This document shows positions 34,380-52,128 of a stretch of 64,000 nt of DNA, one piece after another. How positions within the stretch are numbered: the stretch's first letter is position 1; every line of letters begins with the position of its first letter. Below the pieces are notes generated by a model. That model was not told the DNA's origin and searched no databases. It was given only the letters and a program-made list of their open reading frames with translations. The translations under genes were made by a program, and so were the position numbers. The DNA lies in the IMG/VR virus record IMGVR_UViG_3300047157_000171; one strand, 5' to 3'. This stretch comes from a virus.

Positions 34380-35288
34380 ATGGCAACAGGTAATTACGGA
34401 ATAAAGAGACCAGCAGATGTTACACCTTCCGATGTGGAGGTTTTTTTACATTATGCTTCAGATAGAGATTCGAATACGGCACCAGTGTTTAAAAAATTAA
34501 ATGCTAGTGATATTTTGTCACCTGTTTTCCATAACGATGTGACAGGTGGTACTCAAGAAACAGAGATGTTAGGGGGTTTATATAACTTAACACTTGAAAG
34601 TGGAGAATTTTCAGATTTAGGGGTGTATAACTTATACATCAGACCAAAAGAAATAAGAACGAATATCACAGATTGTGGTGTGTTATTAACATTACCAAAC
34701 GTTAAGGGGTTGATATTTGACGTATCAAGTATACCATCAGAAGATAGAGGTAAATTTGTGAATAACGGATTGGTTGGGTACAGAATTGAATACTTAGACG
34801 ATAGTGGTAAAAAGATTAGTAACTTCTATAGAGTTATAACGAGTAGTTTTTTCTGTGAACCGATTGTTGCTAATTTAACAAATACAAATCAAAAATCTTT
34901 AAGATATAGATATACGAGTAATCCTACGAGTTTAGTATATTGTACTGTAACTCCGAGTACTGCTCCAACAAATAATCCAAATGAGATTCCATTTATTGGT
35001 GAACCAAACCAAAATGTTATCTTAACCAATACTTACTTTAACCCTGTACACATGGAGGTTGAGTTAGTAGAACACGACGAACAAACATTAGCATACGCAT
35101 TGTATGGTAATCAAACTAAGTCAATTGAAGACGGAATATACACGATTTACGATAAAGAGAATAATATATACAGACAGTATAACTTATTTGAAATACGTGA
35201 TGAAATTAATAATAAATTATATGAGGTCCGTGAAGATAGAATTGATGACATCGACACGTCCAAAGGTTTTGATAATATAGCGAATTAA
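34380..35288 (+). CDS. Putative virion structural protein
   Basis: 302 aa, preceded by the late motif and TAATG-coupled to the giant wedge/fibre gene. Confidence 0.55.
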   Translation: MATGNYGIKRPADVTPSDVEVFLHYASDRDSNTAPVFKKLNASDILSPVFHNDVTGGTQETEMLGGLYNLTLESGEFSDLGVYNLYIRPKEIRTNITDCGVLLTLPNVKGLIFDVSSIPSEDRGKFVNNGLVGYRIEYLDDSGKKISNFYRVITSSFFCEPIVANLTNTNQKSLRYRYTSNPTSLVYCTVTPSTAPTNNPNEIPFIGEPNQNVILTNTYFNPVHMEVELVEHDEQTLAYALYGNQTKSIEDGIYTIYDKENNIYRQYNLFEIRDEINNKLYEVREDRIDDIDTSKGFDNIAN

Positions 35289-38200: not shown

Positions 38201-41200
38201 ATAAAGACGACTAGTCCAGAGGTTGAAGGGTTAAGTGCTTTTGAGATTGAAGGATTTAAAGATGGTGAGTTTTGTTATGATTGTCATAACGAGATAAAGT
38301 TAATAACCAATAGTTACTGTGGAGAATGTTTCGATATAGATTCGTTAGAAATAGGGATGAAAGTTATTATTAATGAGGGTGAAGGACAAGATGACTGTAA
38401 AGACAGATGTTTTGTGTTGGAGAACATTCCGTTTAGTATTGACCAAAGTCAGTTCGGAGGTGTTCACTATGACGTAAATTACCCTGACCATCATATAGAT
38501 ATGTTAGACCCGAGGGGTACTGTATTTTTAACTGAAAAGTTTGAAGTTGTTAAATGCGTGGACTACGATAAAGTATATCATGGGACGTATCAGTATGTCG
38601 GTGGGTTAGACACAATAGACAGGTTTCCTGTGTATAAACACATAACTGAAGACATTTATCTTTCGTGTTATCCTGATGCGCCTGAATCGGTTAATGGTGA
38701 CTTTATGTTTACTGAAGGACCTAAAGGTTCGTATACTCAGATATATGGTAAATTATCGGATAAAAACTTATTAGACTTCACAAACGTATTCACACATTCA
38801 TTAGAATGGGAAATTGACGACTGTATAACAGTTGATGATTTAGAAGAAGACCAAAATGTTATCAGACACCGTTATGCTACGGGTGATAGTATTGGTATTT
38901 GTGATAGAGTTAATGACGATGGGTTTGATTATGTGAAAATATGGTTACATGGTGGGACTTTTGAAGCTCAAGACGGTACCACTTTACCTTATGATATGTT
39001 CTTTGATTGTAAAGAAGATTTGGTTGAGGGAGAAACTATATGGTATGACGAAGCTGGTGATGTTTTTATAGTTAAGATTAAATCAGGAGAGAATAGGTTG
39101 ATACATGCTTATGACCAATCGGGTGCTCCGATACACATATATTTAAAAGAAAGAAACACCGTGTTGGTGGGTCTTGATTTTGAAACGGACTTAGAAACTA
39201 TCGACGAATATGGTGGTTACGGTCAATATGGTGGTTACGGAGGTTATGGTAGTTACACTTCTTACGGTGGTTACGGTCAATATGGTGGTTACGGAGGATA
39301 TGGTGGTTACGGAGGGTATTTCTGTTACGGAAACGAATATCTTTTTTATTCAAATATAAATCCTTATTGTATTGGTAGACTTGATTATGAGATAAGACCT
39401 GAGTGTCAAGGTTATTTAACGGATACTGAATTTTATAGGGTTAAAGGAGAAACAATACCATACGAAATAACTATTGATGAGGTAATTGTCGGTGAAAATG
39501 TTGAAACAGTTAGGGTTCAGGATATTAATGTCGGTGATTTAATTATCGCTGCGAGTCCTAATTACGGAGAAATGGATTTCTGTGATTACTCGGAGTTCCA
39601 ATATGGGAATGAAAGTATTGTGTGTAATTACACAAAAAACATTAAAATGGTTCCTGTGATGAGTACATCATGTGGGAGAATATATAAATACATTAATATT
39701 AATGAAGGTAGGGTTAAAGTGGAATTCCATCATAATATTTTAGTATTAGAGGATTTAAACAAAACGAATTCAAACGACTTATTAACAACGTGTTATACTG
39801 AAGCACCTACAAAACCAATTGGAACGATTTACAACTTAGACGGGACACCATCACAGGTGTTTTATGATAATGAATATCAGATAGTTGGTAAACCGGCTAA
39901 TGAGATTAGTATCGGTGATTATATAATAACAACAGAAGAGTGTGGTGTAATTGAAGTAAAGAGTTTGGTTTATGATGATTACTGTGATGAGGGTCTGTTT
40001 AATGACAAGTATCAAATTAAGTTTGATGAGGATATGTTTGCGTGGTATAGACCTAAAGACGGATATGATACAATATATATCAACGATAAATGTGTTCCTT
40101 ATTGTGAGTTAATATGTTGTGATGAAATAGAGATGTGTATTGACGACATAAGTATTAGTGGTATTTGTATTGACGATATAAGTTACGTTATTGGTGATGT
40201 ACCAACAACAACTACATCAACTACAGAGGAGGTTACAACAACCACAACTACTAAGGATAGACGTTACTACGACTACTTCAACGACAGAGGAGCCGTTACA
40301 ACAACCACAACTACTGAAAAAGACGTTACAACTACTACGACTACAGAAAAACCATGTGTTTGTTATAAAACAAACCCTTATGATGATAGAATGTTTGTGG
40401 TTTACAAAAATTGTGATGGAAATCAGATAACAATAAATAAAACATGTAACTCTACTATCTGTCAGGGGATTGAATTTTCAGCTACGGAAATATTGAGTGG
40501 ACAATCGGAAGTTTTTATTGTTGATTGTGAAGATAAAACAACAACTACTTCTACAACAGAAGAACCGACAACAACGACTAGTACGACTAAGGATATAACG
40601 ACAACGACTAGTACGACTAAGGATATAACGACAACGACTAGTACAACAGAAGAACCAACAACAACGACTAGTACGACAGAAGATAAGACGACTACCACTT
40701 CTACTACAGAGGATAAGACAACAACCACTTCTACGACTAAGGATATAACAACAACCACTTCTACAACAGAAGAGCCGACAACGACTACCTCTACGACTAA
40801 GGATAGGACTACTACTACTTCTACAACGGAAGAACCGACAACAACGACTAGTACAACAGAGGATATGACAACGACTACTTCTACAACAGAAGTTGAACCG
40901 TTATGTGTTTGTATAGAATTTACACATATTTCTACGGGACCTGGAAGACATATTGGGTATTATGACGATTGTGATGGTATTCAGAGAGAGATAATGGTAA
41001 ACCCATTAGAAAGTGAAAAAGTGTGTGGTACCGGGTTAAATATATCAACATCAGATGGTAAATTAATTTACCAAGTAGGTGAGGAATGTGACATTTATAG
41101 AAAATGTCCAAGCGATGAAACGACAACAACGACAAGTTTTAGAGAACCTGACGACCCAACAACAACCACTTCTACAACAGAAGAGCCGACAACAACAACT

Positions 41201-41626
41201 TCAACCACTATGGGTGACGGTGGTTCGGGTCCGATTACAACGACAACAACTAGAGGAAATAATGAAACAACTTATTGTGTTAATTTTGATTGGTTAGGTT
41301 CTCAGGTAATACCACAATCCTCAGGTAAGGCATATGCTGATAGTACAACAGTTAGTCAAATAACTGAATTCTATTTATATGATGTCGCTTGTGGAAATGG
41401 TGATTTTGATACATTAGCAAACGCATTAACCACGGGTTATGGTCTTACGGTTAGTAGAGGTAATTCGACGGCTAACTTTACTCTTAATTCGTTGACAAAT
41501 AATAGTCAAATGAACTATTGGACTTTAGGGGTTACTTATAATTCAGGAACAGTAACACAGGCGCCCGAAGGGTTACCATGTCATCAACCAAATAACTTCT
41601 GTTTCACACAACCAATACTAAGTTAA
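35288..41626 (+). CDS. Giant (2112 aa) baseplate wedge / fibre protein: gpI/gp7-like core, Cys-rich region, YGG repeat, Hint-like domain, mucin-like Thr repeats
   Basis: P2 gpI-like motif LLKNLAGLLG...IYRRIILNSAYLFKSKGTRKPLRFLLSFIG; the low-complexity segments are directly visible. Confidence 0.65.
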   Translation: MANIRFPSNGSGTFSDGLVGGQNTEGNDFTQKNFSEEGTPVVRDTKSFTTSDFSKPISLEDLNSEESIKEVSKLFDQSLKIKFNTEKGSKDLFGSAFLRAKVAVENIANTFPASLRVFKTTTDAQTVDTAYDVVNNLQFNTTTFKIPLRAIRNPLGIEYSNIGLKVFDGQYDSDRNFAKEFTKYVLLFSGVEYKIKKVLLPEDRYNGELSITVHGKPFTGSTQEEFYIKLNDILFEKKFELMDDFEQLLLDRENVPLYEAKFKVPKETSDGSLYFGDEKIKWELSDDFNIVVEGDKFERYLEKLFETCEVIDNYKANLIARFLSTASLQEFDTEGQKVKKIFQLYGRFFDDVKKFIDNIAYMNNVTYDKINNVPDLLLKNLAGLLGLDVITSITDRNIEEYLYKKKDSQFDGLTKGKTPFETDIEIYRRIILNSAYLFKSKGTRKPLRFLLSFIGAPESFVEINEYVYKVINRIDYDKFSEKLDNVIDGEWFESDVDFKTIKVWSEIKEEWLDKSDFQKKYPNVEIDVLGYLENGQLPDGENHGDAYILDKELISVEVQKSGGVYNVDDYPIERVGTSDNSIPKTPTITNDYFFQKGAGWFERTDSHKSVSVLDEERSDLTTSPKTIKTKFEDFTYGEKFYDRYKNFPNFDDGWELKADIDNKKSDSDTNKFILNRKNVDIFLNPGRAVLFDFVRTYQKHSLSYSGVLLNNLTFAQFSEYGFWNGVEVGKGKYGKKYWDLIELFKDYYESGLGKAYDYDLTYAYLNKISTYWIRLVEQFIPATTLWFTGEKVENHNLHRPKFNWEEPCRNDVMSLDLSLAKTLYETLIDSLKKYKNIPDCYERLYRYGNWYLQVKINDKIYQIGGKEWTHFFTSTESDKMGSCNLDNAQPGSPDTCPQYDNPIYMLCDFETYVTCYPDECKDFVTTIVQMLSQISKDIYRDEIADKVSDCDFLCDNDDGLTYVADTVFGSTIKTTSPEVEGLSAFEIEGFKDGEFCYDCHNEIKLITNSYCGECFDIDSLEIGMKVIINEGEGQDDCKDRCFVLENIPFSIDQSQFGGVHYDVNYPDHHIDMLDPRGTVFLTEKFEVVKCVDYDKVYHGTYQYVGGLDTIDRFPVYKHITEDIYLSCYPDAPESVNGDFMFTEGPKGSYTQIYGKLSDKNLLDFTNVFTHSLEWEIDDCITVDDLEEDQNVIRHRYATGDSIGICDRVNDDGFDYVKIWLHGGTFEAQDGTTLPYDMFFDCKEDLVEGETIWYDEAGDVFIVKIKSGENRLIHAYDQSGAPIHIYLKERNTVLVGLDFETDLETIDEYGGYGQYGGYGGYGSYTSYGGYGQYGGYGGYGGYGGYFCYGNEYLFYSNINPYCIGRLDYEIRPECQGYLTDTEFYRVKGETIPYEITIDEVIVGENVETVRVQDINVGDLIIAASPNYGEMDFCDYSEFQYGNESIVCNYTKNIKMVPVMSTSCGRIYKYININEGRVKVEFHHNILVLEDLNKTNSNDLLTTCYTEAPTKPIGTIYNLDGTPSQVFYDNEYQIVGKPANEISIGDYIITTEECGVIEVKSLVYDDYCDEGLFNDKYQIKFDEDMFAWYRPKDGYDTIYINDKCVPYCELICCDEIEMCIDDISISGICIDDISYVIGDVPTTTTSTTEEVTTTTTTKDRRYYDYFNDRGAVTTTTTTEKDVTTTTTTEKPCVCYKTNPYDDRMFVVYKNCDGNQITINKTCNSTICQGIEFSATEILSGQSEVFIVDCEDKTTTTSTTEEPTTTTSTTKDITTTTSTTKDITTTTSTTEEPTTTTSTTEDKTTTTSTTEDKTTTTSTTKDITTTTSTTEEPTTTTSTTKDRTTTTSTTEEPTTTTSTTEDMTTTTSTTEVEPLCVCIEFTHISTGPGRHIGYYDDCDGIQREIMVNPLESEKVCGTGLNISTSDGKLIYQVGEECDIYRKCPSDETTTTTSFREPDDPTTTTSTTEEPTTTTSTTMGDGGSGPITTTTTRGNNETTYCVNFDWLGSQVIPQSSGKAYADSTTVSQITEFYLYDVACGNGDFDTLANALTTGYGLTVSRGNSTANFTLNSLTNNSQMNYWTLGVTYNSGTVTQAPEGLPCHQPNNFCFTQPILS
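39209..39319 (+). repeat. Tyr-Gly-Gly coding repeat
   Basis: Encodes YGGYGQYGGYGGYGSYTSYGGYGQYGGYGGYGGYGGY; the block ggtggttacggtcaatatggtggttacggagg is present twice. Confidence 0.9.
40538..40897 (+). repeat. 12 x 30-bp coding tandem repeat (TTTTSTT-EEP/KDI/EDK...)
   Basis: Twelve 10-aa units with varied synonymous codons. Confidence 0.95.
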
Positions 41627-41671: not shown

Positions 41672-41679
41672 TATTTATA
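41672..41679 (+). promoter_or_regulatory. Putative late promoter TATTTATA
   Basis: Starts 20 nt before ATG 41692. Confidence 0.45.
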
Positions 41680-41691
41680 TAATAAAAGAAA

Positions 41692-42786
41692 ATGGGAAAT
41701 ATTAACGATACTAATAACAGGTTAGCCACAGACACTCCAGATACTACTACAACTACTACCACAGGTGGAGTTTCGGTTACGTTTAGTAGTCCTAGTAATG
41801 GACCGTGTAATTTAACATTTACCCCTGATTGTGGTGGGGTAACGACTAATAATAATACATCTAGGGTTGCTACTGACACGCCTGATACACCTACCGTGAC
41901 AATACTGGGTATTAATTTCCCTTACACTTTTTATCCTTCAGAACATGGAGTTGATGATATTTTTGGTACATATACGTTTAATTGTGGTGGTTGTGAATAT
42001 ATAAGAAACATAGAGAGAGTGTGTAACGATAATGATATATCATATACAGTATTAGGTTCTTCTGTTACGACAACAACAACAGAGGATGTTACAACAACTA
42101 GTACGACTGAAGATGTAACAACGACTAGTACGACTGAAGATGTAACAACGACTAGTACAACTGAAGATGTAACGACTACAACCACTTCGTCAGGTTGTAA
42201 AAATTATCTGTTAAAAGCTGATGACCAATTTACGGAGTTTAGATATATTGCGTGTGGTGAAACAAACTACACAACTGTAGGTCTTAATCGAGACACTAGT
42301 AGAGTGGTATGTTCAGAAAATATACCAGTAGTTACTGTTGGTTCGGATAATGCTGAAGTGATTGATACGGGTATAAGTTGTACTGAAGACCCAACAACAA
42401 CGACTAGTACGACTACGGAGATAGAGACGACTCGTTTTTATATTTCAGCAGGAAAACCAATACTTGGGGTGTATGAAGAAGGAACGAACGAAGGTACTGG
42501 GTTCTGTGACAACACATACTTATTATCGGGTGCCCTTTGGGTGGTTGGTAATTTAACACAGACTTCATCTTTACTTAATAAAACAGTATACACCAATAGT
42601 GATATGGATACTTTCATACCTGTCGGATATTATTACGTACACGGAAGTCCGGGTTACCCTAATGGTACCTATGGAGGAGCGGTACCAGGTCAGCAACACT
42701 TAGCAATAAGGGTAGACGCGAATGGTCTTGTTGGTACTGTTGTTAGTCATAATTGTGGAGACCAAGGAGGAGGACAAGACCTTTAA
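41692..42786 (+). CDS. Thr-rich, Cys-module putative virion decoration/fibre protein A
   Basis: TTTSTTEDV x~4 (27-bp units at ~42070-42190), Cys modules, N-terminal region paralogous to 42807. Confidence 0.6.
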   Translation: MGNINDTNNRLATDTPDTTTTTTTGGVSVTFSSPSNGPCNLTFTPDCGGVTTNNNTSRVATDTPDTPTVTILGINFPYTFYPSEHGVDDIFGTYTFNCGGCEYIRNIERVCNDNDISYTVLGSSVTTTTTEDVTTTSTTEDVTTTSTTEDVTTTSTTEDVTTTTTSSGCKNYLLKADDQFTEFRYIACGETNYTTVGLNRDTSRVVCSENIPVVTVGSDNAEVIDTGISCTEDPTTTTSTTTEIETTRFYISAGKPILGVYEEGTNEGTGFCDNTYLLSGALWVVGNLTQTSSLLNKTVYTNSDMDTFIPVGYYYVHGSPGYPNGTYGGAVPGQQHLAIRVDANGLVGTVVSHNCGDQGGGQDL

Positions 42787-42806
42787 AAATATAAAAAATA
42801 CGAGAT

Positions 42807-44114
42807 ATGTCTAATATAAACGAAAAAGAAAACAATAACGGTAGTATCAATAATACGTCTATTGATAGTAATGGGAATGGTGATTTAGCTGCTACTGATA
42901 CTACAACAGTTAATGGGAATGGTAGTTTAGACGCTACTGATACTACTACAGTACAACCTTCAACTCAAACGGTTAGGTTTGAACGAATGAGTAATGGTAA
43001 ATGTGATTTAACATTTACCCCAACGTCTACAACATCTACGACTAATAATACGTCTAAGGCCGCTACGGATACGACTGATACGACAACTACACAACCTAAC
43101 AGTGTTAGTATCCCCAACGTGTCTTTTCCTTACGAGTTTGACCCTTTAGACCATGGGTTTAATAGTGTAAATGGGACATATACGTTTGATTGTTGTGGAT
43201 GTCCTTATGTGTTCGTTATCGATGGTGAAGATAATTCTGTAACAACTACTACTACTGAAGAGGTTACAACAACGACAACTAGTAAAGACACTGACCCAAT
43301 AACGACCACAACTACTACTGAAGAGGTTACAACAACGACAACGACTGAAGATGTGTGTGATAACTGTACTACGGTTAGGGTTCGTAAAAATCCGTTATCG
43401 ACTAATGTTAGTTTTGATTATATAGATTGTGATAACAATAGTCAGTCTTATACCTTCCAAACTAAGGTTGCGGTTATTGATTTATGTGTGTGTACAGGAA
43501 GTATACCAAGTAGTGATGACTATACTGTTGAATTTATCGAAGAATGTACAACAGGATTACCGGTATTAACCTGCGATTTATTACAATTCACAGTTAATGA
43601 TGGGGAGAATGGAGAACTTGTTAGTTTTAATAATGGAAGTGGATTATTTATACCGGCTCAGGTAACACCTATTCAATATAATTTAGGTGTTGGAACCTAT
43701 ACTGTTAGTGTTACAGTACCAGATGGATATAGTAACGCAGGTGATACTTTAGAATGTGTGAGTGATGAGGTTATTGTATCTCAAGGTGGTGGTGATACCA
43801 CGACAACATCGACAAAGGGTTCATCTAATGCGTTTTGTGCTAAGGTAACATATGGACCTAACAGTCCGAATACGCTACAAACGCCACAGGGTGGAGAGAT
43901 ATTGGAATTTCAAATAAACCAGATGTTTACATATTCTAACGAAGATGGGGGAGGATTCTTTAGAATATGTACTGACAATGGAGCGTTCTATGTGGTAGAG
44001 AATAATTCGGTGAGAGTAATTCAAGAGAGTGACGATATTGATATTGAATATAATACGGATGATAGATGTACTACTGATGGTTCTGGAAATATTGACTGTG
44101 TACAAAGAGTTTAA
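42807..44114 (+). CDS. Thr-rich, Cys-module putative virion decoration/fibre protein B
   Basis: Shares SNG.C.LTFTP and FPY.F.P..HG....GTYTF.C.GC.Y with 41692; TTTTTEEVTTTT linkers. Confidence 0.6.
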   Translation: MSNINEKENNNGSINNTSIDSNGNGDLAATDTTTVNGNGSLDATDTTTVQPSTQTVRFERMSNGKCDLTFTPTSTTSTTNNTSKAATDTTDTTTTQPNSVSIPNVSFPYEFDPLDHGFNSVNGTYTFDCCGCPYVFVIDGEDNSVTTTTTEEVTTTTTSKDTDPITTTTTTEEVTTTTTTEDVCDNCTTVRVRKNPLSTNVSFDYIDCDNNSQSYTFQTKVAVIDLCVCTGSIPSSDDYTVEFIEECTTGLPVLTCDLLQFTVNDGENGELVSFNNGSGLFIPAQVTPIQYNLGVGTYTVSVTVPDGYSNAGDTLECVSDEVIVSQGGGDTTTTSTKGSSNAFCAKVTYGPNSPNTLQTPQGGEILEFQINQMFTYSNEDGGGFFRICTDNGAFYVVENNSVRVIQESDDIDIEYNTDDRCTTDGSGNIDCVQRV

Positions 44115-44173
44115 GTGTATACTTAAAGATAGTTTTTATTACATTAATGGTATAATCACATAAAAAATATTGT

Positions 44174-45106
44174 ATGGTAACTATATGTTCACAACCCGAT
44201 AATATATATTTTCATTGGCAAAATCTAATACAGTTCTATAACTTTAAAAAGTTAGGAATTTTAAAAGACCATAGGGCGGTTTTTCTAGTTAGTCAAGGAA
44301 AATCTCCTTCTAAGTTTGTTTTAGAATTTAAAAAACAATATCCTAAAAACGTTTTCATATATATGGACGATAGGATACAAAAACACTACATCCCAACCAT
44401 TAAAATACACGGGGTTGTTAAGTACTTAACGACTGACAGGAAACAACAAGATTTAATGTTAATTGATTCGGACATTATCCTTAACGAAAAAATTGATTAT
44501 AGTAAATTCACAGAAAATAATACGGTATATTGTAGTAACACAAAAGGGTATTTAGGGTATCAATATCTAAAGACTAAGGGGGATGAAATTGTTACAGACA
44601 TGTGTCACTTTATGGGTATTACATTGGACGATGTAAAAGACCAAAATGATAATTCAGGGGGTGCTCAATTATATTATAAAGGTGTTGATGGATTATTAGA
44701 GTATTTTAAAGAGGTTGAGGACAAAGCCCCTAAATTATATGATTTGATGGTTAAACATCCAACGTATAATGATTATAAACCAACAATACAGGCTTGGACA
44801 TCAGAGATGTGGGCAGTGTTATGGTTACTGTGGAAACGAGACGTTAAAACTGAAATACATTCTGAATTAGATTTCAGATGGGCTACTGATGATATTTCTT
44901 TATGGAAGACAAATAAGATACTACATATGGCTGGTGTAACCGCAGGTATGAAAGACGTTTTCTTTAAGGGTGGTTTTATCACAAAGACACCATTTAATAC
45001 TGATTTTGATTATATTAGGGAGAATTCTATCACTAAAATCTATATAGAAGAAATGGAAGAATTAAAGAAAGACCAATCTTTCAAAAACTTAATAGAACTC
45101 CTTTAA
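44174..45106 (+). CDS. GT-A glycosyltransferase resembling plant GT95/GT96 (HPAT/SERGT) protein O-glycosyltransferases
   Basis: YFHWQ, YIPTIKIHGVVKYL, LIDSDII (DxD), WTSEMW and ILHMAG appear in the same order as the plant motifs, as recalled. Confidence 0.6.
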   Translation: MVTICSQPDNIYFHWQNLIQFYNFKKLGILKDHRAVFLVSQGKSPSKFVLEFKKQYPKNVFIYMDDRIQKHYIPTIKIHGVVKYLTTDRKQQDLMLIDSDIILNEKIDYSKFTENNTVYCSNTKGYLGYQYLKTKGDEIVTDMCHFMGITLDDVKDQNDNSGGAQLYYKGVDGLLEYFKEVEDKAPKLYDLMVKHPTYNDYKPTIQAWTSEMWAVLWLLWKRDVKTEIHSELDFRWATDDISLWKTNKILHMAGVTAGMKDVFFKGGFITKTPFNTDFDYIRENSITKIYIEEMEELKKDQSFKNLIELL

Positions 45107-45112
45107 TTTTCA

Positions 45113-45142
45113 TTCACTTTATTTTTTAATTTAATACTTTTA
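45113..45142 (+). promoter_or_regulatory. Putative middle promoter
   Basis: TTCACT-N16-TACTTTTA. Confidence 0.3.
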
Positions 45143-45158
45143 CGTATACAATAGAGCT

Positions 45159-46190
45159 ATGCGAAGACGTAAAAGTAAAATATTTGACATATATATAACC
45201 ACAGGTGCTGGTAACACGGTCGGTGGTGGTTCAGACGTATGGGTTAATAATTGGTTAAAGTTAATACCTAAACATTTGGATATTAAACCAATTCTACTTA
45301 TTGATAATTATAGATTTCAAGGGTTTGAAGAGGACTCAATACCAATAGAACATATTTTCTATAATGAAAGACCTGATGAATCTAAAAGATTATTACAGGA
45401 ATGTCGACACATTCACTTCTTACATAATCATTACACTAAAAGACCTCACTTATGGAAGTATAGGTTTAAGTTTAAGAGTATTGCGGTTCACGCATATGCC
45501 AGAGAGATAGTTGATTCTTATAAGGAGTTAGGATTCTCAAGAGATTCTGTCCCTTTTTTATGGAATGTTGAATGGCAAGACGAATTAATCCGTGAGTGTG
45601 AAACTAAATATTGGGTCGGTTCACAAAGAGGTTTAGTTAACGATATTTTTAACGACTGTATAACAATACCAAATTATTATGAGTTTATATGGAATAAGGA
45701 ATATTTTCATAGTAATGTGGTTGGGTTTGCTGCAAGGGCAGAAACAAGAAAAGCGATTCACTTCTTGGAGAATGTTAGGTCCAATGCTTTTACATCAAGT
45801 AATGGTGTTAAGATATGGGAGAAAAACACTAAAATGAAGTTCAACAATACTAAAATCATTGAGTATAATCCAAACTTAACAGATGAATATTATAATAGTA
45901 GTCTGTTCGGTATATTCCATGGTGCTTATGTTAAAGAACCATTTGGGTATTCAATTCTCCAAGCCGTTGATGCTGGTAAATTACCTATTATATCTAAAGG
46001 GTGGTGTCCAGAGTTTAACTATCCGTATCGAGCGTCGAGTAAAGAAGAGTTTGAAAATATGGTTAAGTTAATACAAAACACAAATAAAGAAACAAGGAAA
46101 AATATCTTTAATTCGGCAAAAGAATTTTTAAAGAAATTTGACAATAAAGACCATTGGGTTGAAAGAATGAAAACAATTTATAATGAATAG
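45159..46190 (+). CDS. GT-B glycosyltransferase (GT4-like)
   Basis: N-terminal GGGSDVW, VGFAAR..RK, and EPFGYSILQAVDAGKLPII signature. Confidence 0.8.
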   Translation: MRRRKSKIFDIYITTGAGNTVGGGSDVWVNNWLKLIPKHLDIKPILLIDNYRFQGFEEDSIPIEHIFYNERPDESKRLLQECRHIHFLHNHYTKRPHLWKYRFKFKSIAVHAYAREIVDSYKELGFSRDSVPFLWNVEWQDELIRECETKYWVGSQRGLVNDIFNDCITIPNYYEFIWNKEYFHSNVVGFAARAETRKAIHFLENVRSNAFTSSNGVKIWEKNTKMKFNNTKIIEYNPNLTDEYYNSSLFGIFHGAYVKEPFGYSILQAVDAGKLPIISKGWCPEFNYPYRASSKEEFENMVKLIQNTNKETRKNIFNSAKEFLKKFDNKDHWVERMKTIYNE

Positions 46191-47136
46191 AAAATTAATA
46201 GTTTCACGAATGTGGACAAAACGAGGTATACAACAGTACTTCTCATTACTCCAAATATCTAAAGAATTTTGGGACTTTGAAATAGAAGCACATATTCTAA
46301 TTGACGATTGGACACACGATGATGATTGGACTAAGGAGATAGAAAAACTTAATAACCCACATAGAGAAGGGTTTCCGATGAGTGTGGAGTTTTACACCAA
46401 AGAAGAGTTAAAACAATGGTACCATAGTAATAATATTATAGATAAGAGTGTCTTTGATAACATGAAAGGATTTTTACATATTTATCATCTTCTGTTGTAT
46501 TTTTATTTATATGTTGAAAAAGGTATCGATTACTTAGTGTCTTATGATGATGATATCGTGTTTAATAAAAAGGTTAGTCCTGAGTTAAATGAAATCGATG
46601 GTTTAATAGCTAATAAGACACCATTTGTTATTGACGAAGAGTACTTCCCTATGTCTGACAAAAGTATGTTTGTTGGCTTATCTAATTATTTTAACCGTGA
46701 TTTAACACCTGATTATTATAGAAATAATGTAAGGGGTGTTGGTGCCAATGCTGGTTTTATGGGTATAGAAACCTCATCGATATTTAGTTCTTTTAAAGAC
46801 AATTTTATGGGATTATTATCTTTGTTTGATTTCAAATCGCCGAACTTAAAATCTATTGATGAACCTTACCATTATACTGATAAGGTTTTATTCGATACTC
46901 AAGAACAAAGTTTTATGAGTATTATGTTACACTGTTTTGCGACAAAAGAATTGTTTAGGTTAGGTGGGGCATTAGGGTATTTCTTTGATACTCCAATACA
47001 AGAGGCGGTAAATAAGTCTAAATTAATACATTTCACAGGAGACAGAAAATACGACCCACTATTTCCAAAGATTATTATAGATTTTCTAAAGAAACACGGT
47101 CATAACAATATCACACCAGATTGGTTTTATTATTAA
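46183..47136 (+). CDS. GT-A glycosyltransferase (GT8-like)
   Basis: YDDDIVF (DxD), NAGFM, EQSFM, LIHFTG..K. Confidence 0.65.
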   Translation: MNRKLIVSRMWTKRGIQQYFSLLQISKEFWDFEIEAHILIDDWTHDDDWTKEIEKLNNPHREGFPMSVEFYTKEELKQWYHSNNIIDKSVFDNMKGFLHIYHLLLYFYLYVEKGIDYLVSYDDDIVFNKKVSPELNEIDGLIANKTPFVIDEEYFPMSDKSMFVGLSNYFNRDLTPDYYRNNVRGVGANAGFMGIETSSIFSSFKDNFMGLLSLFDFKSPNLKSIDEPYHYTDKVLFDTQEQSFMSIMLHCFATKELFRLGGALGYFFDTPIQEAVNKSKLIHFTGDRKYDPLFPKIIIDFLKKHGHNNITPDWFYY

Positions 47137-47142
47137 ATAATT

Positions 47143-48252
47143 ATGTTGGAACCGTTATACAATAAAGAAATATTAGAAGAAGGTATTATTGAAGCATTAA
47201 GGCACATTGATGCTTTTGATGATATTGAAAAGGCGAAAGAATGTCTAAGAACCGCACTATCACCAAATGAAAAATGGGCGATTAATTTACTAAACTCGAG
47301 TGTTAGTGATAATATGAAATTCCACACAATGAATGGGTATAATTTACCGTTTTTTGAAAATGACAGTAATATACCAAAAAGAGCGAAAAATGCTAGATTA
47401 TGTGTCGTATATCAAGTATGGGGTAATCATAACTATTTAAAGTTTTTATACCTATCAATTTTATCACAATTGGCGTATACGGATATTTTAGATTTTGATA
47501 TTAAAATATTTTTAGGAAAAGGATTTGTTAATGATGTAGGTGCGTCATTAATCGACCGATTATTACCTGAAGGGTCTATTATACCTGTTAATGATGGGTT
47601 ATCTTTAAAATATGGATTAACTTCCCATCCACATTTACAGAACTACGACGTAGTTTCTGTTGTTGATACAGACGCATTTTGGTACCACCCTAAAGGTGAG
47701 AAAACTAACGTATACCAAAAAATGTTAGATTTGTATGACTCAGGTTTTGATGGTCTTATTATGGCACCAGACCCTGACTTGGCAAGTTCAGTGTTTTGGC
47801 AAAGAAGAGATACGTTAAACACCAATATACCGGCTGAACATTATAAAAACTATTTCTACAGAAATGCGAATACGGATGAAAAAAGACTTACTGATTTTGT
47901 AGACCATGATAAGAATTGGTTCCTATCATGTCTATTTGTATACGGTAAAAACCAATTTAGAGAACCAGGTTATGGTAAATACGCATTGACCTGTTTATAT
48001 GATGAATTACTTTGTGATGAAACAGTTTGGATGATGTGGGGTCTCGGTCACGATTACGAAATCGAGAACATGAATAATACAGGGTTTTTACGATGGGTTG
48101 GTGCGAATGATTTCGATAGGTATTGGAGCAATGAGAAAAATAGTGAAGATGTTTTGTCTTATATTCATCCTGTACAGGGAGACCATTGTTTTAATATGAA
48201 TTTAATTAAGTTATATGATAAAATAGTAGAAGATTACAAATTAAGTAGATAA
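47143..48252 (+). CDS. Putative GT-A glycosyltransferase
   Basis: VSVVDTDAF (DxD), CDETVW, late YIHP; lies inside the GT operon. Confidence 0.5.
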   Translation: MLEPLYNKEILEEGIIEALRHIDAFDDIEKAKECLRTALSPNEKWAINLLNSSVSDNMKFHTMNGYNLPFFENDSNIPKRAKNARLCVVYQVWGNHNYLKFLYLSILSQLAYTDILDFDIKIFLGKGFVNDVGASLIDRLLPEGSIIPVNDGLSLKYGLTSHPHLQNYDVVSVVDTDAFWYHPKGEKTNVYQKMLDLYDSGFDGLIMAPDPDLASSVFWQRRDTLNTNIPAEHYKNYFYRNANTDEKRLTDFVDHDKNWFLSCLFVYGKNQFREPGYGKYALTCLYDELLCDETVWMMWGLGHDYEIENMNNTGFLRWVGANDFDRYWSNEKNSEDVLSYIHPVQGDHCFNMNLIKLYDKIVEDYKLSR

Positions 48253-49175
48253 TGAAAAGACCCGATTATACTGTAATGTATACTTTACACGTCATGCCAG
48301 AAGAAATACAAGATGTTGGTAGGATAATAAAAGACTTTGAAATATCGACAAAAGAAAACTCAAATGTGGGTGTTACCTTATATATTGATTTGAATTTTTC
48401 AGATGTCTATTATGATTGGACAAATTCTAAAATGACAAAAGAAACTTTTTATAATTTATTTCAAAACTTCTTAACACATTCTAGAAAGAATTTAAATATA
48501 ATACACAATGTAAGAGATACGGGGCATTGGGGTGTTAATTCAACCAGAAGAAACGTGATTAACGAATACAAAGATACGTTTGATTATATTGGTTTTATTG
48601 ATTGTGACATATTTTTTGACCCAGCTGCGATTCAGTATGTGTATAAAACATTAGAAAAAGAGCCGGGAGAATTTATTGTATTCTCTGGTTTATTACCTAA
48701 GATGTGGAACGAACACTTTGATGGTCTCACACATAAAAAATTTAAGAATGTGACTGACAGGTCATTTCCTTTTAAGATTAACCCTTTGAGTGTTTATGGG
48801 TTTCACCAAACTCAGAAAAATGAGGTTGGATATACTTCTGACATTATGATTGGGGGAGGATGGTTTAACGTTTTTTCTACAACGATTTTCGATTACGTAA
48901 CCATACCGACAGAATTAGGGGTTTATGGTATTGATGACCATTGGATTCAAGAATGTTGTCGTTTTCTTAATAAATCAGGGTGGGATATTAAACAATGTTA
49001 TAATAATAAATTTTTAATATTAGAGAACCACGGTCGTAAGTTTAATATGCCAGAGCCTTTTATAGTTAAAAAAATGGTAAATGGGGGTAAATTTGAATAT
49101 GAAAAAAACGCAAAACAAAATTACGAAAGATTATTTAGTGAGTATAAACAAAGTATTATAAGTAAGTATTTCTAA
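48252..49175 (+). CDS. GT-A glycosyltransferase (GT2-like)
   Basis: RRNVIN...YIGFIDCDIFF, GGGWF, YGIDD. Confidence 0.7.
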   Translation: MKRPDYTVMYTLHVMPEEIQDVGRIIKDFEISTKENSNVGVTLYIDLNFSDVYYDWTNSKMTKETFYNLFQNFLTHSRKNLNIIHNVRDTGHWGVNSTRRNVINEYKDTFDYIGFIDCDIFFDPAAIQYVYKTLEKEPGEFIVFSGLLPKMWNEHFDGLTHKKFKNVTDRSFPFKINPLSVYGFHQTQKNEVGYTSDIMIGGGWFNVFSTTIFDYVTIPTELGVYGIDDHWIQECCRFLNKSGWDIKQCYNNKFLILENHGRKFNMPEPFIVKKMVNGGKFEYEKNAKQNYERLFSEYKQSIISKYF

Positions 49176-49177
49176 TC

Positions 49178-50680
49178 ATGAAGTTATTTTTTACTTTTTA
49201 TAGTAAAGAAAGTATTCCTAAGTTACACCACTTCTTCAAACACTACAGAAACTTAGGGGTGACTAATTTTTATGCGATATATCATGCGTATGAAGAATAC
49301 AGTAAAGATGTTTTAGATTATGTGATGGAAAACGCCATGGTTGTTAAGATATGGGACGGGGTCTTTAACGAACATATTAAAGTAAAACACATAAATGATG
49401 CGAGGTTAAAATTCTCAAGTTATGGTGAGTGGTCGTTTACTGTTGATTGTGATGAATTTATAGATATTAGTATTAATGACTTAAATAAGGTGGTTAATAG
49501 TGATGCGAACTATGTGAAGTTTAGTATGATAGACAGGGTATCTAAACCATCACTTAAAGAGGTTACGATTGAAGAAGACATTGGAATAACGTTTCCATAT
49601 TATTCTTTTATTACATATAGTTTATTAGAGGGGGCGATATCTAAAGTGCCTCTATCTGTTCGTGAAGTCATTATTGGTTTAGGTTATCACGATGTCATTG
49701 GAGGGCAAGAACAAGTGGTTAAGTTGAAAAAACATCATTTAAATGGGTATGTTAATCACTTTAAATGGGATAGTGACCTTATCTATACTATGCACGATAG
49801 AGTGACTAATAGGTTAATAGATGACGGAAGTGCTGATGATTACAAAGGAGAATGTGAAGTTGCTTTGTCTTTGGATTATGATAATGTGATTACTTATGAC
49901 AAACCTTTAGAAATGAAATTATTGTTTATTGTTTGGTCCCTTCAGGATTATAATATGTTAAAGCAGTTTTTCATTCATTATAGAAACTTAGGGGTTACCA
50001 AATTCTATTGTATTTTTCATACTTACGGTATGGAAGATAATTTTATTTATGACTTTGTTAAACAAAACGCTGAGATTGTACATCATTGGGATGAGAAATA
50101 TACGACAGAGTGGGAATGTAAACTAAAGAATAAATATAAGAGAGAAATATGTGATGATGAGAACGAATGGGTGTGGTGTGTAGATGCTGACGAATTTGTT
50201 GATGTCTCACCAGACTTTGTAAGGGAAGTTATAGGTAGTGACTCAAATTACGTTAATGGGTGGATGGTAGATAGGTTTTCTGAAGATGGATTAATAGTCC
50301 CATTGGATGATAATATGTTTAAACAGTTCCCAATTAGGACTTACTATACACGGTTTAAATTAAATGGTTCTGCGTCTAAAATTCCACTAACTCGTTCTTA
50401 TGTTATAATTGGTGTGGGTCATCATGTTGTGTTAAATGAAATGTATGATTTTGGTGTAAAGGATGAGAGAGTCTTAATTTCTTATAATGGTAATGAGGAT
50501 GATTGGATTGAAGTTGCTCATATTAAATGGCATTATCAATTGTTAGAGGAGATTTATAATAAATTCACTAAAACAATGAATTTATGTCAATACTCGGCAA
50601 GGGAGATGGGTGTTTTTGTATTGGATTATTGTTATAAGAAAAAACCAATAACTGAAATTATTAAAGACGTGAGAATATGA
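49178..50680 (+). CDS. Tandem two-domain glycosyltransferase (Glyco_tranf_2_4 / GT92-like)
   Basis: Two copies: FFKHYRNLGVTNF...WSFTVDCDEFI and FFIHYRNLGVTKF...WVWCVDADEFV. Confidence 0.75.
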   Translation: MKLFFTFYSKESIPKLHHFFKHYRNLGVTNFYAIYHAYEEYSKDVLDYVMENAMVVKIWDGVFNEHIKVKHINDARLKFSSYGEWSFTVDCDEFIDISINDLNKVVNSDANYVKFSMIDRVSKPSLKEVTIEEDIGITFPYYSFITYSLLEGAISKVPLSVREVIIGLGYHDVIGGQEQVVKLKKHHLNGYVNHFKWDSDLIYTMHDRVTNRLIDDGSADDYKGECEVALSLDYDNVITYDKPLEMKLLFIVWSLQDYNMLKQFFIHYRNLGVTKFYCIFHTYGMEDNFIYDFVKQNAEIVHHWDEKYTTEWECKLKNKYKREICDDENEWVWCVDADEFVDVSPDFVREVIGSDSNYVNGWMVDRFSEDGLIVPLDDNMFKQFPIRTYYTRFKLNGSASKIPLTRSYVIIGVGHHVVLNEMYDFGVKDERVLISYNGNEDDWIEVAHIKWHYQLLEEIYNKFTKTMNLCQYSAREMGVFVLDYCYKKKPITEIIKDVRI

Positions 50681-52128
50681 TAGGGATACATTCGGTTTTT
50701 AGTAACGAGAATAGGGGGTTTATTTATAACGTGAATACTGATATTAGTACGGTTGAGTTATATACGTGGGTTTATTCGATATTGACGTGGAAAAGAGATG
50801 GGCATCCATTATATCTATATTGTGATGATAAAATTAATGAATTTGTCACCAAGTACGGATTCGGACATTTATATGATGAGATAAGGATTAGAAATTATGA
50901 TGATGATATTCACGAATGTTTTTGGTCGTACAATAAAATACGAGTAATAGAAGAATTTGGGGAACCTGTTTGTTTATTTGATGTCGATACGTTTTTTAGA
51001 AACACTGAATTTACTAAGTTACAATATGATATGATAACATATCATTATGAATTATGGGATTCAGAGTTAAAAGATAAAATGTTTAACAGTAAAGATAGTT
51101 TAAAAAACTTAAGTTTCTATCAACCTGTGGATGACAGTGTTGAGATTGTTAATGGTAGTTTATTGATTTTTAATAGTTATGATTTAAAAACAGAATTTTT
51201 ACGTAACGCTAAAGAGGTTGTTGATACCATAAAGACTATAGAGTATGAAAGTCAATTTGAATATGATTCGTATACTATCTTTATGGAACAGGTTAACTTA
51301 GGTTATTTAAATAATAAATATCACTGTGGTAAAGTGTCTAAAAGAAATGAATGGGGAGACTATAGGTTTAATGGTGACGAACCATTTGTACATTTAGGTC
51401 ATAATAAAGAGAGATTGGCTCATGGTAATCCACAGACGAAGGAAAGATACGTCCATATTATTAAGGAGAAGATTATTGAGTTAGGTTATCCTGAGTTTGA
51501 AAAGTTATTCACTCTAACAACATTTGAAGGGGATAAGACTCAAAATTCCTTAATACCTCAAAGGGTAAAACCATTGGCTAGAAATATGGGGAATAAGATA
51601 AATTCTGAGTTATTCACTAAATGGTATGGTGATAATATAGATATAATAACTGATAATCGATTTGATATTGCAATATGGGGTTCTATATTGGGTAATGATA
51701 TTGATTTAATAATATCAACATCTGAAGGGGTTAATATAAGTGATAAAGACTTAGAAGAATTTATGTTACTATTACATAGGTCAGGGAATTATATTGATAT
51801 TACTGTTGAGGTGTTATATACCAACAATATTAACTATTTCAGAGAATTTAGAATGGAAAATTCTCAAAAAGTGAAAGAAGATATTCTTATTGGGTTTGTT
51901 TCTGAATCGGATTATGAACCAAACGGTGAGTTAAGAACGGTGGGTAAACTAAAGTTTTATGAAGGACCATTTAACGATGCTTACTATAAATCAACAAATA
52001 AACATGATGAAGTTCTATTTATAGATTCGGTAAAAGATATAAAAAACAACGATGGATATACACATTTTTCATCAGAGGTTTATAATACCATATATGAAAG
52101 GTTTGGAATTTTCAGTATGTTAGGCTGA
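50677..52128 (+). CDS. DUF6734-like GT-A domain fused to a nucleotidyltransferase-like domain
   Basis: LYLYCD, FWSYNKI, CLFDVDTF and IFMEQ in the N-terminal part; C-terminal IWGSILGNDIDLII...YIDI resembles 14175. Confidence 0.5.
   Translation: MIGIHSVFSNENRGFIYNVNTDISTVELYTWVYSILTWKRDGHPLYLYCDDKINEFVTKYGFGHLYDEIRIRNYDDDIHECFWSYNKIRVIEEFGEPVCLFDVDTFFRNTEFTKLQYDMITYHYELWDSELKDKMFNSKDSLKNLSFYQPVDDSVEIVNGSLLIFNSYDLKTEFLRNAKEVVDTIKTIEYESQFEYDSYTIFMEQVNLGYLNNKYHCGKVSKRNEWGDYRFNGDEPFVHLGHNKERLAHGNPQTKERYVHIIKEKIIELGYPEFEKLFTLTTFEGDKTQNSLIPQRVKPLARNMGNKINSELFTKWYGDNIDIITDNRFDIAIWGSILGNDIDLIISTSEGVNISDKDLEEFMLLLHRSGNYIDITVEVLYTNNINYFREFRMENSQKVKEDILIGFVSESDYEPNGELRTVGKLKFYEGPFNDAYYKSTNKHDEVLFIDSVKDIKNNDGYTHFSSEVYNTIYERFGIFSMLG

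What the first reader, a model, noticed from the sequence alone, without database searches (positions are those of the whole stretch)
44174..45106. Phage glycosyltransferase resembling plant extensin O-glycosyltransferases (GT96 SERGT / GT95 HPAT)
The motif string YFHWQ ... YIPTIKIHGVVKYL ... LIDSDII ... WTSEMW (nt 44795) ... ILHM parallels, in order, the motifs I recall for plant peptidyl-serine galactosyltransferase and Hyp arabinosyltransferase (YFDWQ, YPAINKP.GV..WL, LDAD, W.SEMY). Those plant enzymes initiate glycans directly on protein hydroxyls. This is the first gene after the mucin-like genes, so it is the best candidate for the priming enzyme.
Basis: partly seen in the sequence, partly recalled or inferred. 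Interest (0 to 1): 0.8.

Follow-up and report, generated by a model that had tools for sequence, protein, structure and literature searches.

The report
Phage sugar-transferase paired with poly-threonine tags
This jumbo-phage gene encodes an unannotated sugar-transferring enzyme, distantly like the plant enzymes that glycosylate cell-wall proteins. Across unrelated phages it is gained and lost together with poly-threonine tags on capsid, tail and fibre proteins, so it most likely starts a sugar coat on the virus particle, though no experiment has shown this.

Summary
The 310-aa ORF at 44174-45106 (+) is real. All five quoted motifs are present and fall on family-invariant positions. It folds with high confidence (pLDDT 96.5) as a soluble GT-A glycosyltransferase with a DxD motif (D98/D100) and a distal His (H251).

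Its nearest solved structures are all retaining GT-A enzymes (GT8, GT24, GT77; Z 13-14). The only named family it approaches is plant/algal HPAT (PF23452, GT95). That signal comes from a sub-threshold HMM hit (14 vs 23.9 bits), predicted structure (TM 0.75) and language-model neighbours (18 of 30). It is therefore HPAT-like but not a Pfam-level member. It belongs to PHROG 4417, "unknown function".

The functional reading rests on co-variation. In two siphophage lineages the gene is present exactly where orthologous capsid or tail-tube proteins end in a poly-Thr tail (12/12 vs 0/15; 37/37 vs 2/32). Presence and absence differ by one clean ~1 kb indel: tail codons plus this gene. In the window, Thr-tract proteins bracket the GT cluster and occur nowhere else.

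Best reading (~0.7): a cytoplasmic protein O-glycosyltransferase that primes Thr tracts. There is no biochemical evidence and the sugar is unknown. This scan's follow-up agents reached the same reading on at least eight other genomes. Those are AI notes, not independent evidence.

The parts
44174..45106 (+). 310-aa soluble GT-A glycosyltransferase of PHROG 4417. It is the HPAT-like putative protein O-glycosyltransferase, i.e. the finding.
   Evidence: ORF. PHROG 4417 at E 4.7e-68. AF2 model pLDDT 96.5, pTM 0.92. Retaining GT-A neighbours at Z 12.9-14.4. HPAT is the nearest named family.
44465..44473 (+). DxD motif (D98-S99-D100), the presumed Mn2+/UDP-sugar binding site.
   Evidence: D98 and D100 are invariant in A1 and A3. 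The motif follows strand 94-96 of the model, which is the canonical GT-A position (established knowledge).
44924..44926 (+). H251 in ILHMAG, the presumed third metal ligand.
   Evidence: Invariant in A1 and A3. It sits at the end of strand 249-251. It is followed by invariant G254, F263 and K265, which resembles the GT8 HxxGxxK pattern (inference from knowledge of GT8).
35288..41626 (+). 2112-aa fibre-like virion protein with 19 Thr tracts (TTTTSTT-type units) between about nt 40205 and 41260. Putative acceptor.
   Evidence: ORF and translation. Tract count. No Pfam family. It follows baseplate-wedge genes.
41692..42786 (+). 364-aa protein with 6 Thr tracts. Putative acceptor.
42807..44114 (+). 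435-aa protein with 5 Thr tracts, ending 59 nt before the GT gene. Putative acceptor.
45159..52128 (+). Six co-oriented downstream ORFs, several weakly GT-like. Candidates for glycan extension or decoration.
   Evidence: Pfam: Glyco_tranf_2_4 at 2.2e-13 and GT92 at 4.8e-4 in 49178-50680; sub-threshold GT2 (0.01) in 48252-49175; sub-threshold Glycos_transf_1 (0.092) in 45159-46190; the other ORFs have no hit. The same gene order occurs in a 77%-identical relative (L300).
52167..54278 (+). 703-aa protein with one Thr tract, directly after the GT cluster. Putative acceptor.
   Evidence: An equivalent 701-aa protein with one tract occurs in L300.

Best explanation
The gene encodes a soluble, cytoplasmic, metal-dependent GT-A glycosyltransferase, probably of the retaining type. 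It uses a nucleotide sugar to attach the first sugar to threonine (and serine) hydroxyls in poly-Thr tracts of phage structural proteins before or during assembly.

In this jumbo phage the acceptors would be the Thr-repeat linkers of the three fibre-like proteins upstream and the 703-aa protein downstream. The six downstream GT-like genes would extend or decorate the glycan.

The enzyme is a distant relative of the plant/algal HPAT (GT95) / SERGT (GT96) peptide O-glycosyltransferases. It lacks their membrane anchor and almost certainly differs in sugar and acceptor.

Shown here: the ORF, the conserved motifs, the GT-A fold, nearest-family HPAT, and co-variation with poly-Thr tags.

Inferred: the protein acceptor, the priming role, the retaining mechanism and the cytoplasmic site.

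Unknown: the donor sugar and the biological benefit.
For: 1. Fold and motifs. The AF2 model has pLDDT 96.5. DxD and the distal His are invariant. The ten best solved neighbours are all retaining GT-A enzymes: glycogenin, LgtC, GlyE, LARGE1, UGGT, AgtA and WbbM, at Z 12.9-14.4. Several of these act on proteins or protein-bound glycans.

2. HPAT signal by three methods.

3. Co-variation in the phiFL1-like lineage. Of 27 loci with a phiFL1A-like major tail protein, 12 end in a poly-Thr tail and all 12 carry this GT directly downstream. The other 15 lack the tail and none has the GT (Fisher 5.8e-8). Both states occur within the 79-100% and within the 64-68% identity groups, so there were at least two independent events.

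4. Co-variation in the PLE3-like lineage. Of 69 loci, 37 have both GT and tract, 30 have neither, 2 have a tract only and 0 have the GT only (Fisher 1.6e-17). Capsid proteins 94-99% identical to the PLE3 query end ...VLIPKP without the GT and ...VLVPGKTTTTTTTSHG with it.

5. Clean indel. GT+ and GT- sister phages differ by one clean indel: about 0.95-1.0 kb in GT+ loci, made of the tail codons plus the GT gene, replaced by about 0.1-0.4 kb in GT- loci.

6. Background rate. 71 of 80 viral loci holding the family carry Thr tracts, 70 on the GT strand. By contrast 0 of 80 baseplate-wedge loci (711 kb) and 0 of 14 GT-less sister loci carry one.

7. Sole GT in a simple phage. In phiFL1A both the capsid protein (gp45) and the tail-tube protein (gp50) end in poly-Thr. 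No other GT was found among its ten largest unassigned proteins. There the enzyme must act without a phage-encoded partner GT.

8. Other phages. Poly-Thr sits beside the gene in Lactococcus phage 1706, Lactobacillus phage PLE3, Staphylococcus phage SA2, Lactobacillus phage Semele and Chryseobacterium phage MA9V-3.

9. The window. Thr-tract ORFs occur only at 35288-44114 and 52167-54278, bracketing the GT cluster. A 77%-identical relative keeps this layout although its tract-bearing proteins differ.

10. Independent peptide context. Bacteroidota chromosomal homologues sit with a C39-peptidase/VKOR/thioredoxin gene. In one locus they follow a double-glycine-leader peptide whose core starts with a Thr tract.
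Against: - No biochemical or mass-spectrometric data exist for any family member in the literature I could search.
- The HPAT hit is below Pfam's cut-off (14 vs 23.9 bits). 0 of 86 family representatives reach E<=0.01. The HPAT model finds nothing in five bacterial genomes that do carry family members.
- 9 of 80 family loci have no Thr tract within 6 kb. A marine myovirus whose GT is 59% identical has none within 10 kb.
- Most Bacteroidota chromosomal homologues have no Thr tract nearby.
- In the window itself six other GT-like genes are present. The priming role is transferred from single-GT phages, not shown here.
- Co-variation counts are not phylogenetically independent. Only a few gain/loss events underlie them.
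Confidence: 0.7

Rival explanations
1. It is a protein-directed glycosyltransferase but not the primer. A host enzyme, or in this jumbo phage one of the other six GT-like genes, puts on the first sugar and this enzyme extends it.
For: The window has six further GT-like ORFs. Close solved neighbours such as GlyE, AgtA and LARGE1 extend existing glycans. Many family members are fused to a second GT domain, which shows multi-step chemistry but does not say which step comes first.
Against: In phiFL1-like and PLE3-like phages the gained/lost cassette holds only this one gene plus the tag. No other GT was detected in phiFL1A. The hosts span Bacillota and Bacteroidota, so a common host primer for cytoplasmic poly-Thr tails would have to exist in all of them. 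The nearest named family, HPAT, consists of initiating enzymes (PMC8012813).
Confidence: 0.15
2. It glycosylates a non-protein acceptor, such as phage DNA bases, host cell-wall polymers or a lipid carrier. The Thr tracts would be plain flexible linkers that merely travel with it.
For: Phage GTs are best known for DNA glucosylation and serotype conversion (summarised in PMC12619734). Some family loci lack Thr tracts. Most Bacteroidota chromosomal homologues have none nearby.
Against: The near-perfect presence/absence coupling with tags on orthologous capsid and tail proteins, and the two-part indel, are not expected for a DNA or cell-wall enzyme. The gene sits inside late structural operons, between the tail-tube and chaperone genes. 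Small temperate siphophages such as phiFL1A show no hydroxymethyl-base synthesis genes in their annotation.
Confidence: 0.06
3. It is an inactive or structural GT-like protein, for example a lectin-like assembly factor that binds the Thr tails, and not an enzyme.
For: No activity data exist. The position between tail-tube and chaperone genes could fit an assembly factor.
Against: The catalytic signature is invariant across about 1000 clusters: DxD, the distal His, and the SGGAQ and QxWxxxMW blocks. That pattern indicates purifying selection on an active site. Frequent fusion to other catalytic GT domains points the same way.
Confidence: 0.04

Closest known systems
Plant/algal hydroxyproline O-arabinosyltransferases (HPAT1-3; Pfam PF23452; CAZy GT95) and the related extensin serine alpha-galactosyltransferase SGT1/SERGT1 (GT96)
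   Same: Both are GT-A enzymes that put the first sugar directly on side-chain hydroxyls of repetitive structural proteins (PMC8012813). HPAT is the only named family reached by HMM, predicted structure (TM 0.75 over 285 residues) and language-model features.
   Different: The hit is below Pfam's threshold (14 vs 23.9 bits). The phage protein has no N-terminal membrane anchor, since strand 1 starts at residue 2, so it would be cytoplasmic and not Golgi-located. The inferred acceptor is Thr runs, not Hyp or Ser-Hyp4. UDP-L-arabinofuranose is an unlikely donor in bacteria (inference). GT96 was not tested directly.
Mycobacteriophage virion glycosylation (Che8, Corndog, Myrna; Freeman et al. 2023, as summarised in PMC12619734 and PMC12363180)
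   Same: In both cases phage-encoded glycosyltransferases are associated with the C-termini of capsid and tail-tube subunits. The siphophage relatives here carry poly-Thr tags on exactly those two proteins.
   Different: The enzyme family differs: no Mycobacterium phage is among the 77 tblastn-positive records. The hosts here are Bacillota and Bacteroidota. In the window the tags are internal linkers of fibre-like proteins, not C-terminal tails. Glycosylation is demonstrated for the mycobacteriophages but only inferred here.
Retaining GT-A enzymes of the GT8 type (glycogenin, LgtC, GlyE) and GT24/GT77 (UGGT, AgtA)
   Same: These are the best solved-structure matches, at Z 12.9-14.4 over 210-250 residues. 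They share the DxD plus distal His layout.
   Different: Sequence identity is only 6-11% and Foldseek TM is about 0.4-0.5. There are no Pfam GT8 hits. The extra helical elements and conserved blocks (SGGAQ, QxWTxEMW) are family-specific.
Glycocin-type RiPP systems (such as the sublancin sun cluster: glycosyltransferase, C39-peptidase exporter, thiol-disulfide oxidoreductases; from general knowledge)
   Same: Bacteroidota homologues of this GT lie with C39-peptidase/VKOR/thioredoxin genes and thioredoxin-like genes. In one locus they follow a double-glycine-leader, Cys-containing peptide.
   Different: Known glycocin transferases are GT2 enzymes, which often make S-linkages. Here the acceptor motif would be a Thr run. 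This applies to cellular relatives, not to the phage gene itself.

Membership tests
Pfam PF23452 HPAT / CAZy GT95 | Whole-protein score above Pfam's gathering cut-off (23.9 bits) | tested here: not met
   14.0 bits, E 0.034, residues 182-259 against profile positions 169-245. 5 of 41 relatives hit at E<=1. 0 of 86 hit at E<=0.01.
Pfam PF23452 HPAT / CAZy GT95 | Shared overall fold with bona fide members | tested here: met
   TM 0.75 (285 aligned residues, rmsd 3.9) to a Chlorophyta cluster that is 99% PF23452. TM 0.73 to a bacterial PqqD+HPAT cluster. Both sides are predicted models. 18 of 30 nearest named language-model clusters carry PF23452.
Pfam PF23452 HPAT / CAZy GT95 | Type II membrane anchor and Golgi location | tested here: not met
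   There is no N-terminal extension. The catalytic-domain strand begins at residue 2 and the whole chain is one compact domain. Plant HPATs are Golgi type II membrane proteins (PMC8012813).
Pfam PF23452 HPAT / CAZy GT95 | Transfers L-arabinofuranose to hydroxyproline | not testable with these tools
   This needs an enzyme assay. Context argues for Thr, since Thr runs are the only feature common to all the tags.
CAZy GT96 (SGT1/SERGT1) | Sequence or profile similarity to GT96 members | not tested
   No GT96 profile or sequences were available. The only link is the statement that GT95 is related to GT96 (PMC8012813).
PHROG 4417 (unknown function) | Full-length profile match | tested here: met
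   E 4.7e-68, residues 1-298 against profile positions 1-292 of 293.
GT-A fold, metal-dependent glycosyltransferases | Rossmann-like GT-A fold with a DxD motif after strand 4 and a distal His | tested here: met
   Model. Z up to 14.4 to GT-A structures. D98, D100 and H251 are invariant.
GT-A fold, metal-dependent glycosyltransferases | Retaining stereochemistry | not testable with these tools
   Only suggested: the ten best solved neighbours are all retaining enzymes.
Mycobacteriophage virion-glycosylation transferases (Che8 gp110 type) | Sequence homology to those transferases | tested here: not met
   tblastn of the protein against 50,697 phage records gave 77 hits, none from a Mycobacterium phage.
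Mycobacteriophage virion-glycosylation transferases (Che8 gp110 type) | Modified C-termini of capsid and tail-tube subunits | tested here: inconclusive
   Poly-Thr C-terminal tags on capsid and tail-tube proteins co-vary with the gene in relatives. The modification itself has not been observed. In the window the tracts are internal.

The most novel reading that the evidence does not exclude
The poly-Thr tag and this single transferase form a minimal, horizontally mobile two-part O-glycosylation cassette. Phages of several bacterial phyla would use it to sugar-coat capsids, tails and fibres. Bacteroidota would use a version of it to glycosylate ribosomal peptides. It would also be the prokaryotic/viral sister of the plant GT95/GT96 enzymes that start extensin glycans. 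That would link mucin-like glycosylation in viruses, bacteria and plants through one enzyme lineage.
Probability: 0.35. Interest if true: 0.85.

Novelty: new variant of a known kind. Interest (0 to 1): 0.7.

Why it matters
Virion glycosylation by phage-encoded enzymes has so far been demonstrated only in mycobacteriophages. There it shields particles from antibodies (as summarised in PMC12619734 and PMC12363180).

If this reading is right:
- An unannotated family of about 1000 sequence clusters does the same job in phages of Enterococcus, Staphylococcus, Lactococcus, lactobacilli, Clostridium, Bacteroidota and aquatic jumbo phages.
- It uses a very simple recognisable tag, a run of threonines.
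- This bears on phage therapy (immunogenicity and stability of Enterococcus and Staphylococcus phages) and on dairy phage biology.
- It would allow correct annotation of thousands of "hypothetical" genes.
- A short tag plus one soluble enzyme would be an attractive tool for cytoplasmic protein glycoengineering.
- The distant link to plant GT95/GT96 gives those structurally unsolved families a soluble, easily expressed relative.

Tried and rejected
1. Profile search of the Protein Data Bank by sequence. The only hits were TAL-effector repeats, produced by many sub-significant matches of one 31-residue segment (NSGGAQ-like against the TALE repeat). I rejected this as a repeat artefact.

2. Megablast of 40000-52000 against phage records found no match. 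The window's own assembly is not held. The nearest IMG/VR record carries a 98%-identical copy.

3. I tried to obtain bona fide HPAT sequences for a profile-profile test. The PF23452 model found nothing in five bacterial genomes with family members, nor in 401 genomes of one phylum and 401 of another. Relatives cannot be drawn for a virus record. No hhalign against HPAT could therefore be run.

4. I considered that the transferase carries its own Thr tract, suggested by tracts about 340 nt past the match. Rejected: 0 of 80 GT ORFs contain a tract, and the tract lies in the next gene.

5. I considered hydroxyproline or hydroxylysine as the acceptor, because the enzyme is HPAT-like and a 2OG-Fe(II) oxygenase lies at 55938-56627. 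This is not favoured. The siphophage tags share only the Thr run, and Pro or Lys next to it is inconsistent.

6. Ten literature searches found no paper describing this family or a poly-Thr tag in phages. The Freeman 2023 paper itself is not held.

7. Complex prediction was not used. An enzyme with a disordered substrate is a poor case for it.

Full report
**Observation.** The window is a stretch of a large, probably jumbo, tailed phage. All long ORFs are on the + strand and GC is about 33%. It encodes a DnaB-like helicase, a ribonucleotide reductase and T4-type baseplate-wedge proteins. The nearest held record is a 54.8-kb IMG/VR fragment rated 17% complete, with a 98%-identical copy of the gene. 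These motifs are the conserved core of a real family. In a 41-member alignment the invariant columns include F13, W15, Q16, Y72, D98, D100, G162-Q165, Q206, W208, M212 and H251. Most of these stay invariant among 86 representatives (>=400 aa, 26-38% identical to the window protein) drawn from 50%-identity clusters. An exhaustive profile search finds 1011 representative clusters at E<=0.001. The protein matches PHROG 4417, "unknown function", end to end at E 4.7e-68. None of the 57 close homologues has a precomputed Pfam domain or an informative name.

**What kind of protein it is.** AlphaFold2 with the family alignment gives a single compact domain, pLDDT 96.5 and pTM 0.92. An all-against-representatives structural comparison puts ten retaining GT-A glycosyltransferases on top: glycogenin, LgtC, UGGT, WbbM, AgtA, GlyE, a GT8 protein and LARGE1, at Z 12.9-14.4 over 210-252 aligned residues. 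Inverting enzymes appear only lower in the list. Foldseek agrees, though TM is only 0.4-0.5. D98-x-D100 follows strand 94-96 and H251 ends strand 249-251, which is the canonical GT-A metal and nucleotide-sugar site (established knowledge). There is no N-terminal anchor. I therefore take it as a soluble, metal-dependent and probably retaining glycosyltransferase. The fold and motifs are shown. The stereochemistry is inferred.

**The plant connection.** Pfam gives one hit only: HPAT (PF23452), at E 0.034 and 14 bits against a cut-off of 23.9. It covers residues 182-259, the WTSEMW-to-ILHM region.
- HPAT is the commonest weak hit across the family, in 5 of 41 members; every other family hits one or two.
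- No member among 86 reaches E<=0.01.
- Against ESM-Atlas predicted structures, the nearest clusters with a name are a green-algal ShK+HPAT cluster (99% PF23452; TM 0.75, 285 residues) and a bacterial PqqD+HPAT cluster (TM 0.73). That is far closer than any solved GT-A.
- By language-model features, 18 of the 30 nearest named clusters carry PF23452.

Three different methods thus point to HPAT and to nothing else. The protein nevertheless fails Pfam's own membership test and lacks the plant enzymes' membrane anchor. It is best described as a phage/bacterial sister family of GT95. GT96 (SERGT/SGT1) is reported to be related to GT95 (PMC8012813) but could not be tested here. I could not get true HPAT sequences for a profile-profile comparison.

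**What it acts on.** The strongest evidence is comparative. tblastn finds the family in 77 phage records, mostly siphophages of Enterococcus, lactobacilli, Staphylococcus, Lactococcus and Clostridium, plus Herelleviridae and a Chryseobacterium phage. In these phages it sits inside the structural operon, typically right after the major tail protein. In every case inspected, the neighbouring structural protein carries a threonine run:
- phiFL1A tail-tube gp50 ends ...NGTTTTTSTTTTTTSSTTTTTTTQASSK, and its capsid protein gp45 also ends in Thr runs.
- Phage 1706's tail protein ends in ten threonines.
- PLE3's capsid and tail-tube proteins and a small decoration-like protein are all tagged.
- SA2, Semele and MA9V-3 show the same pattern.

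*Natural experiments.* Among 27 IMG/VR loci with a phiFL1A-like tail protein, the 12 with a Thr tail all have the transferase immediately downstream. The 15 without the tail have none. Both states occur in each of two identity groups. Among 69 loci with a PLE3-like capsid protein, 37 have tract and gene, 30 have neither, 2 have a tract only and none has the gene alone. Nearly identical capsid proteins end ...VLIPKP or ...VLVPGKTTTTTTTSHG accordingly. Fisher tests give 5.8e-8 and 1.6e-17, but the loci are related, so only a handful of independent events underlie these numbers.

*The indel.* Pairwise alignment of GT+ and GT- sisters shows one clean indel of about 0.95-1.0 kb. It consists of the tail codons plus the gene, within flanks 72-97% identical.

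*Background.* Such tracts are essentially absent elsewhere: 0 of 80 baseplate-wedge loci (711 kb) and 0 of 14 GT-less sister loci carry one, against 71 of 80 family loci.

*Sole GT.* In phiFL1A no other glycosyltransferase was detectable among the ten largest unassigned proteins. There the enzyme has no phage-encoded partner, which argues for a priming role.

**In the window.** Thr tracts occur only in four ORFs: 35288-41626 (19 tracts), 41692-42786 (6), 42807-44114 (5) and 52167-54278 (1). These bracket the GT cluster exactly. A relative with a 77%-identical transferase on a 307-kb contig keeps the same layout of tract proteins, this gene, six downstream genes and another tract protein. Its tract-bearing proteins are different, one being a DUF285 protein. 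That fits selection on the tag-enzyme pairing and not on particular acceptor proteins. The downstream genes are only weakly GT-like by Pfam, apart from the tandem Glyco_tranf_2_4/GT92 protein.

**Exceptions and limits.**
- Nine of 80 family loci show no tract within 6 kb.
- A marine myovirus with a 59%-identical enzyme has none within 10 kb; there the gene follows a tape-measure-like protein.
- Most Bacteroidota chromosomal homologues have no tract nearby.
- Nothing here shows a sugar on any protein. The donor sugar is unknown.
- For this jumbo phage the priming role is extrapolated from simpler phages.

**A side result that bears on acceptor type.** The chromosomal Bacteroidota homologues are about 510 aa, with an extra domain. 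They lie in a conserved cluster with a C39-peptidase/VKOR/thioredoxin protein, thioredoxin-like proteins and a GT2. The C39/VKOR/thioredoxin gene recurs in at least nine loci from Sphingobacterium, Pedobacter and Dyadobacter. In one Sphingobacterium locus a small ORF 293 nt upstream reads ...EVLGG|VSWTTTTTTSS... followed by several cysteines. That is a double-glycine-leader peptide with a Thr-tract core, resembling a glycocin-type ribosomal peptide (my inference from general knowledge of the sublancin system). The atlas's PqqD+HPAT clusters carry PqqD, which is a peptide-recognition element. One family member carries a radical-SAM/SPASM fusion. Both point the same way: this enzyme lineage works on peptides.

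**Comparison with known systems and novelty.** Functionally the closest demonstrated system is mycobacteriophage virion glycosylation (Freeman et al. 2023, known to me only through PMC12619734 and PMC12363180). In that system phage transferases glycosylate the C-termini of capsid and tail-tube subunits. The present family is unrelated by BLAST, occurs in other host phyla, and comes with a recognisable poly-Thr tag. No paper in the searchable library describes it. I class it as a new variant of a known kind.

**Earlier scan notes.** Follow-up agents of this scan reached the same reading on at least eight other genomes. I saw those notes only after my own analysis. They are AI notes and not independent evidence.

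**Verdict.** My odds:
- glycosyltransferase: about 0.97
- remote HPAT/SERGT kinship: about 0.8
- acts on poly-Thr tracts of virion proteins: about 0.75
- is the priming enzyme: about 0.65

Noticed in passing
L093:2815-10456 and L095, L097, L103-L106, L108, L114 (Sphingobacterium, Pedobacter, Dyadobacter chromosomes); small ORF in L108 about 293 nt upstream of position 6001: Bacteroidota chromosomal homologues of the transferase (about 510 aa) lie in a conserved cluster with a C39-peptidase/VKOR/thioredoxin fusion protein, thioredoxin-like proteins and a GT2. In L108 a double-glycine-leader peptide whose core begins with a Thr/Ser run and contains several Cys lies just upstream. This looks like an undescribed glycocin-like RiPP system.
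   Followed up: partly
window 55938-56627 (+): The 229-aa protein matches OGFOD2-like (1.3e-8) and 2OG-Fe(II) oxygenase (1e-5) above Pfam cut-offs, about 4 kb past the GT cluster. Whether it hydroxylates a protein residue that is then glycosylated, or acts on nucleic acid, is open.
   Followed up: partly
L007:5117-5930 (Staphylococcus phage SA2): The major tail protein ends in a Thr run. An overlapping ORF in another frame continues with about 60 residues of Thr/Ser-rich sequence. This may be a programmed frameshift inside the Thr-codon run that yields a long-tagged tail-tube variant.
   Followed up: no
window 44627-44719 (residues about 152-182 of the protein): This segment (…MCxxxGIxxxxVKxNxxNSGGAQ…) gives summed weak HMM matches to every repeat of TAL effectors in the PDB search (E 1.4e-6 overall, each repeat insignificant). 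It is almost certainly a repeat-summing artefact, but the resemblance to the 34-residue TALE unit is curious.
   Followed up: partly
alignment A3 / proteins P0059-P0204: More than half of the family's best 147 cluster representatives are 400-1369 aa. Some carry a second catalytic domain: Glyco_transf_7C in 8, GT2 in 3, GlcNAc PF11397 in 2, GT25 in 2, and O-FucT, GT6, sulfotransferase, methyltransferase and radical-SAM/SPASM in 1 each. That implies built-in multi-step glycan synthesis in many relatives.
   Followed up: partly
L020, L021, L026, L036, L039 and similar loci, about 340 nt downstream of the GT stop: In a large group of aquatic viral contigs, the gene immediately after the transferase (about 446-473 aa) has a mixed Thr/Ser run about 110 residues from its start, and an 830-850-aa protein 3-4 kb further on has repeated Thr runs. 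This is a conserved alternative acceptor arrangement.
   Followed up: no
L075 and L085 (contigs labelled GVMAG in IMG/VR): Family members 32-34% identical to the window protein occur on contigs binned as giant-virus MAGs. I did not check whether these are true eukaryotic-virus genes or mis-binned phage.
   Followed up: no
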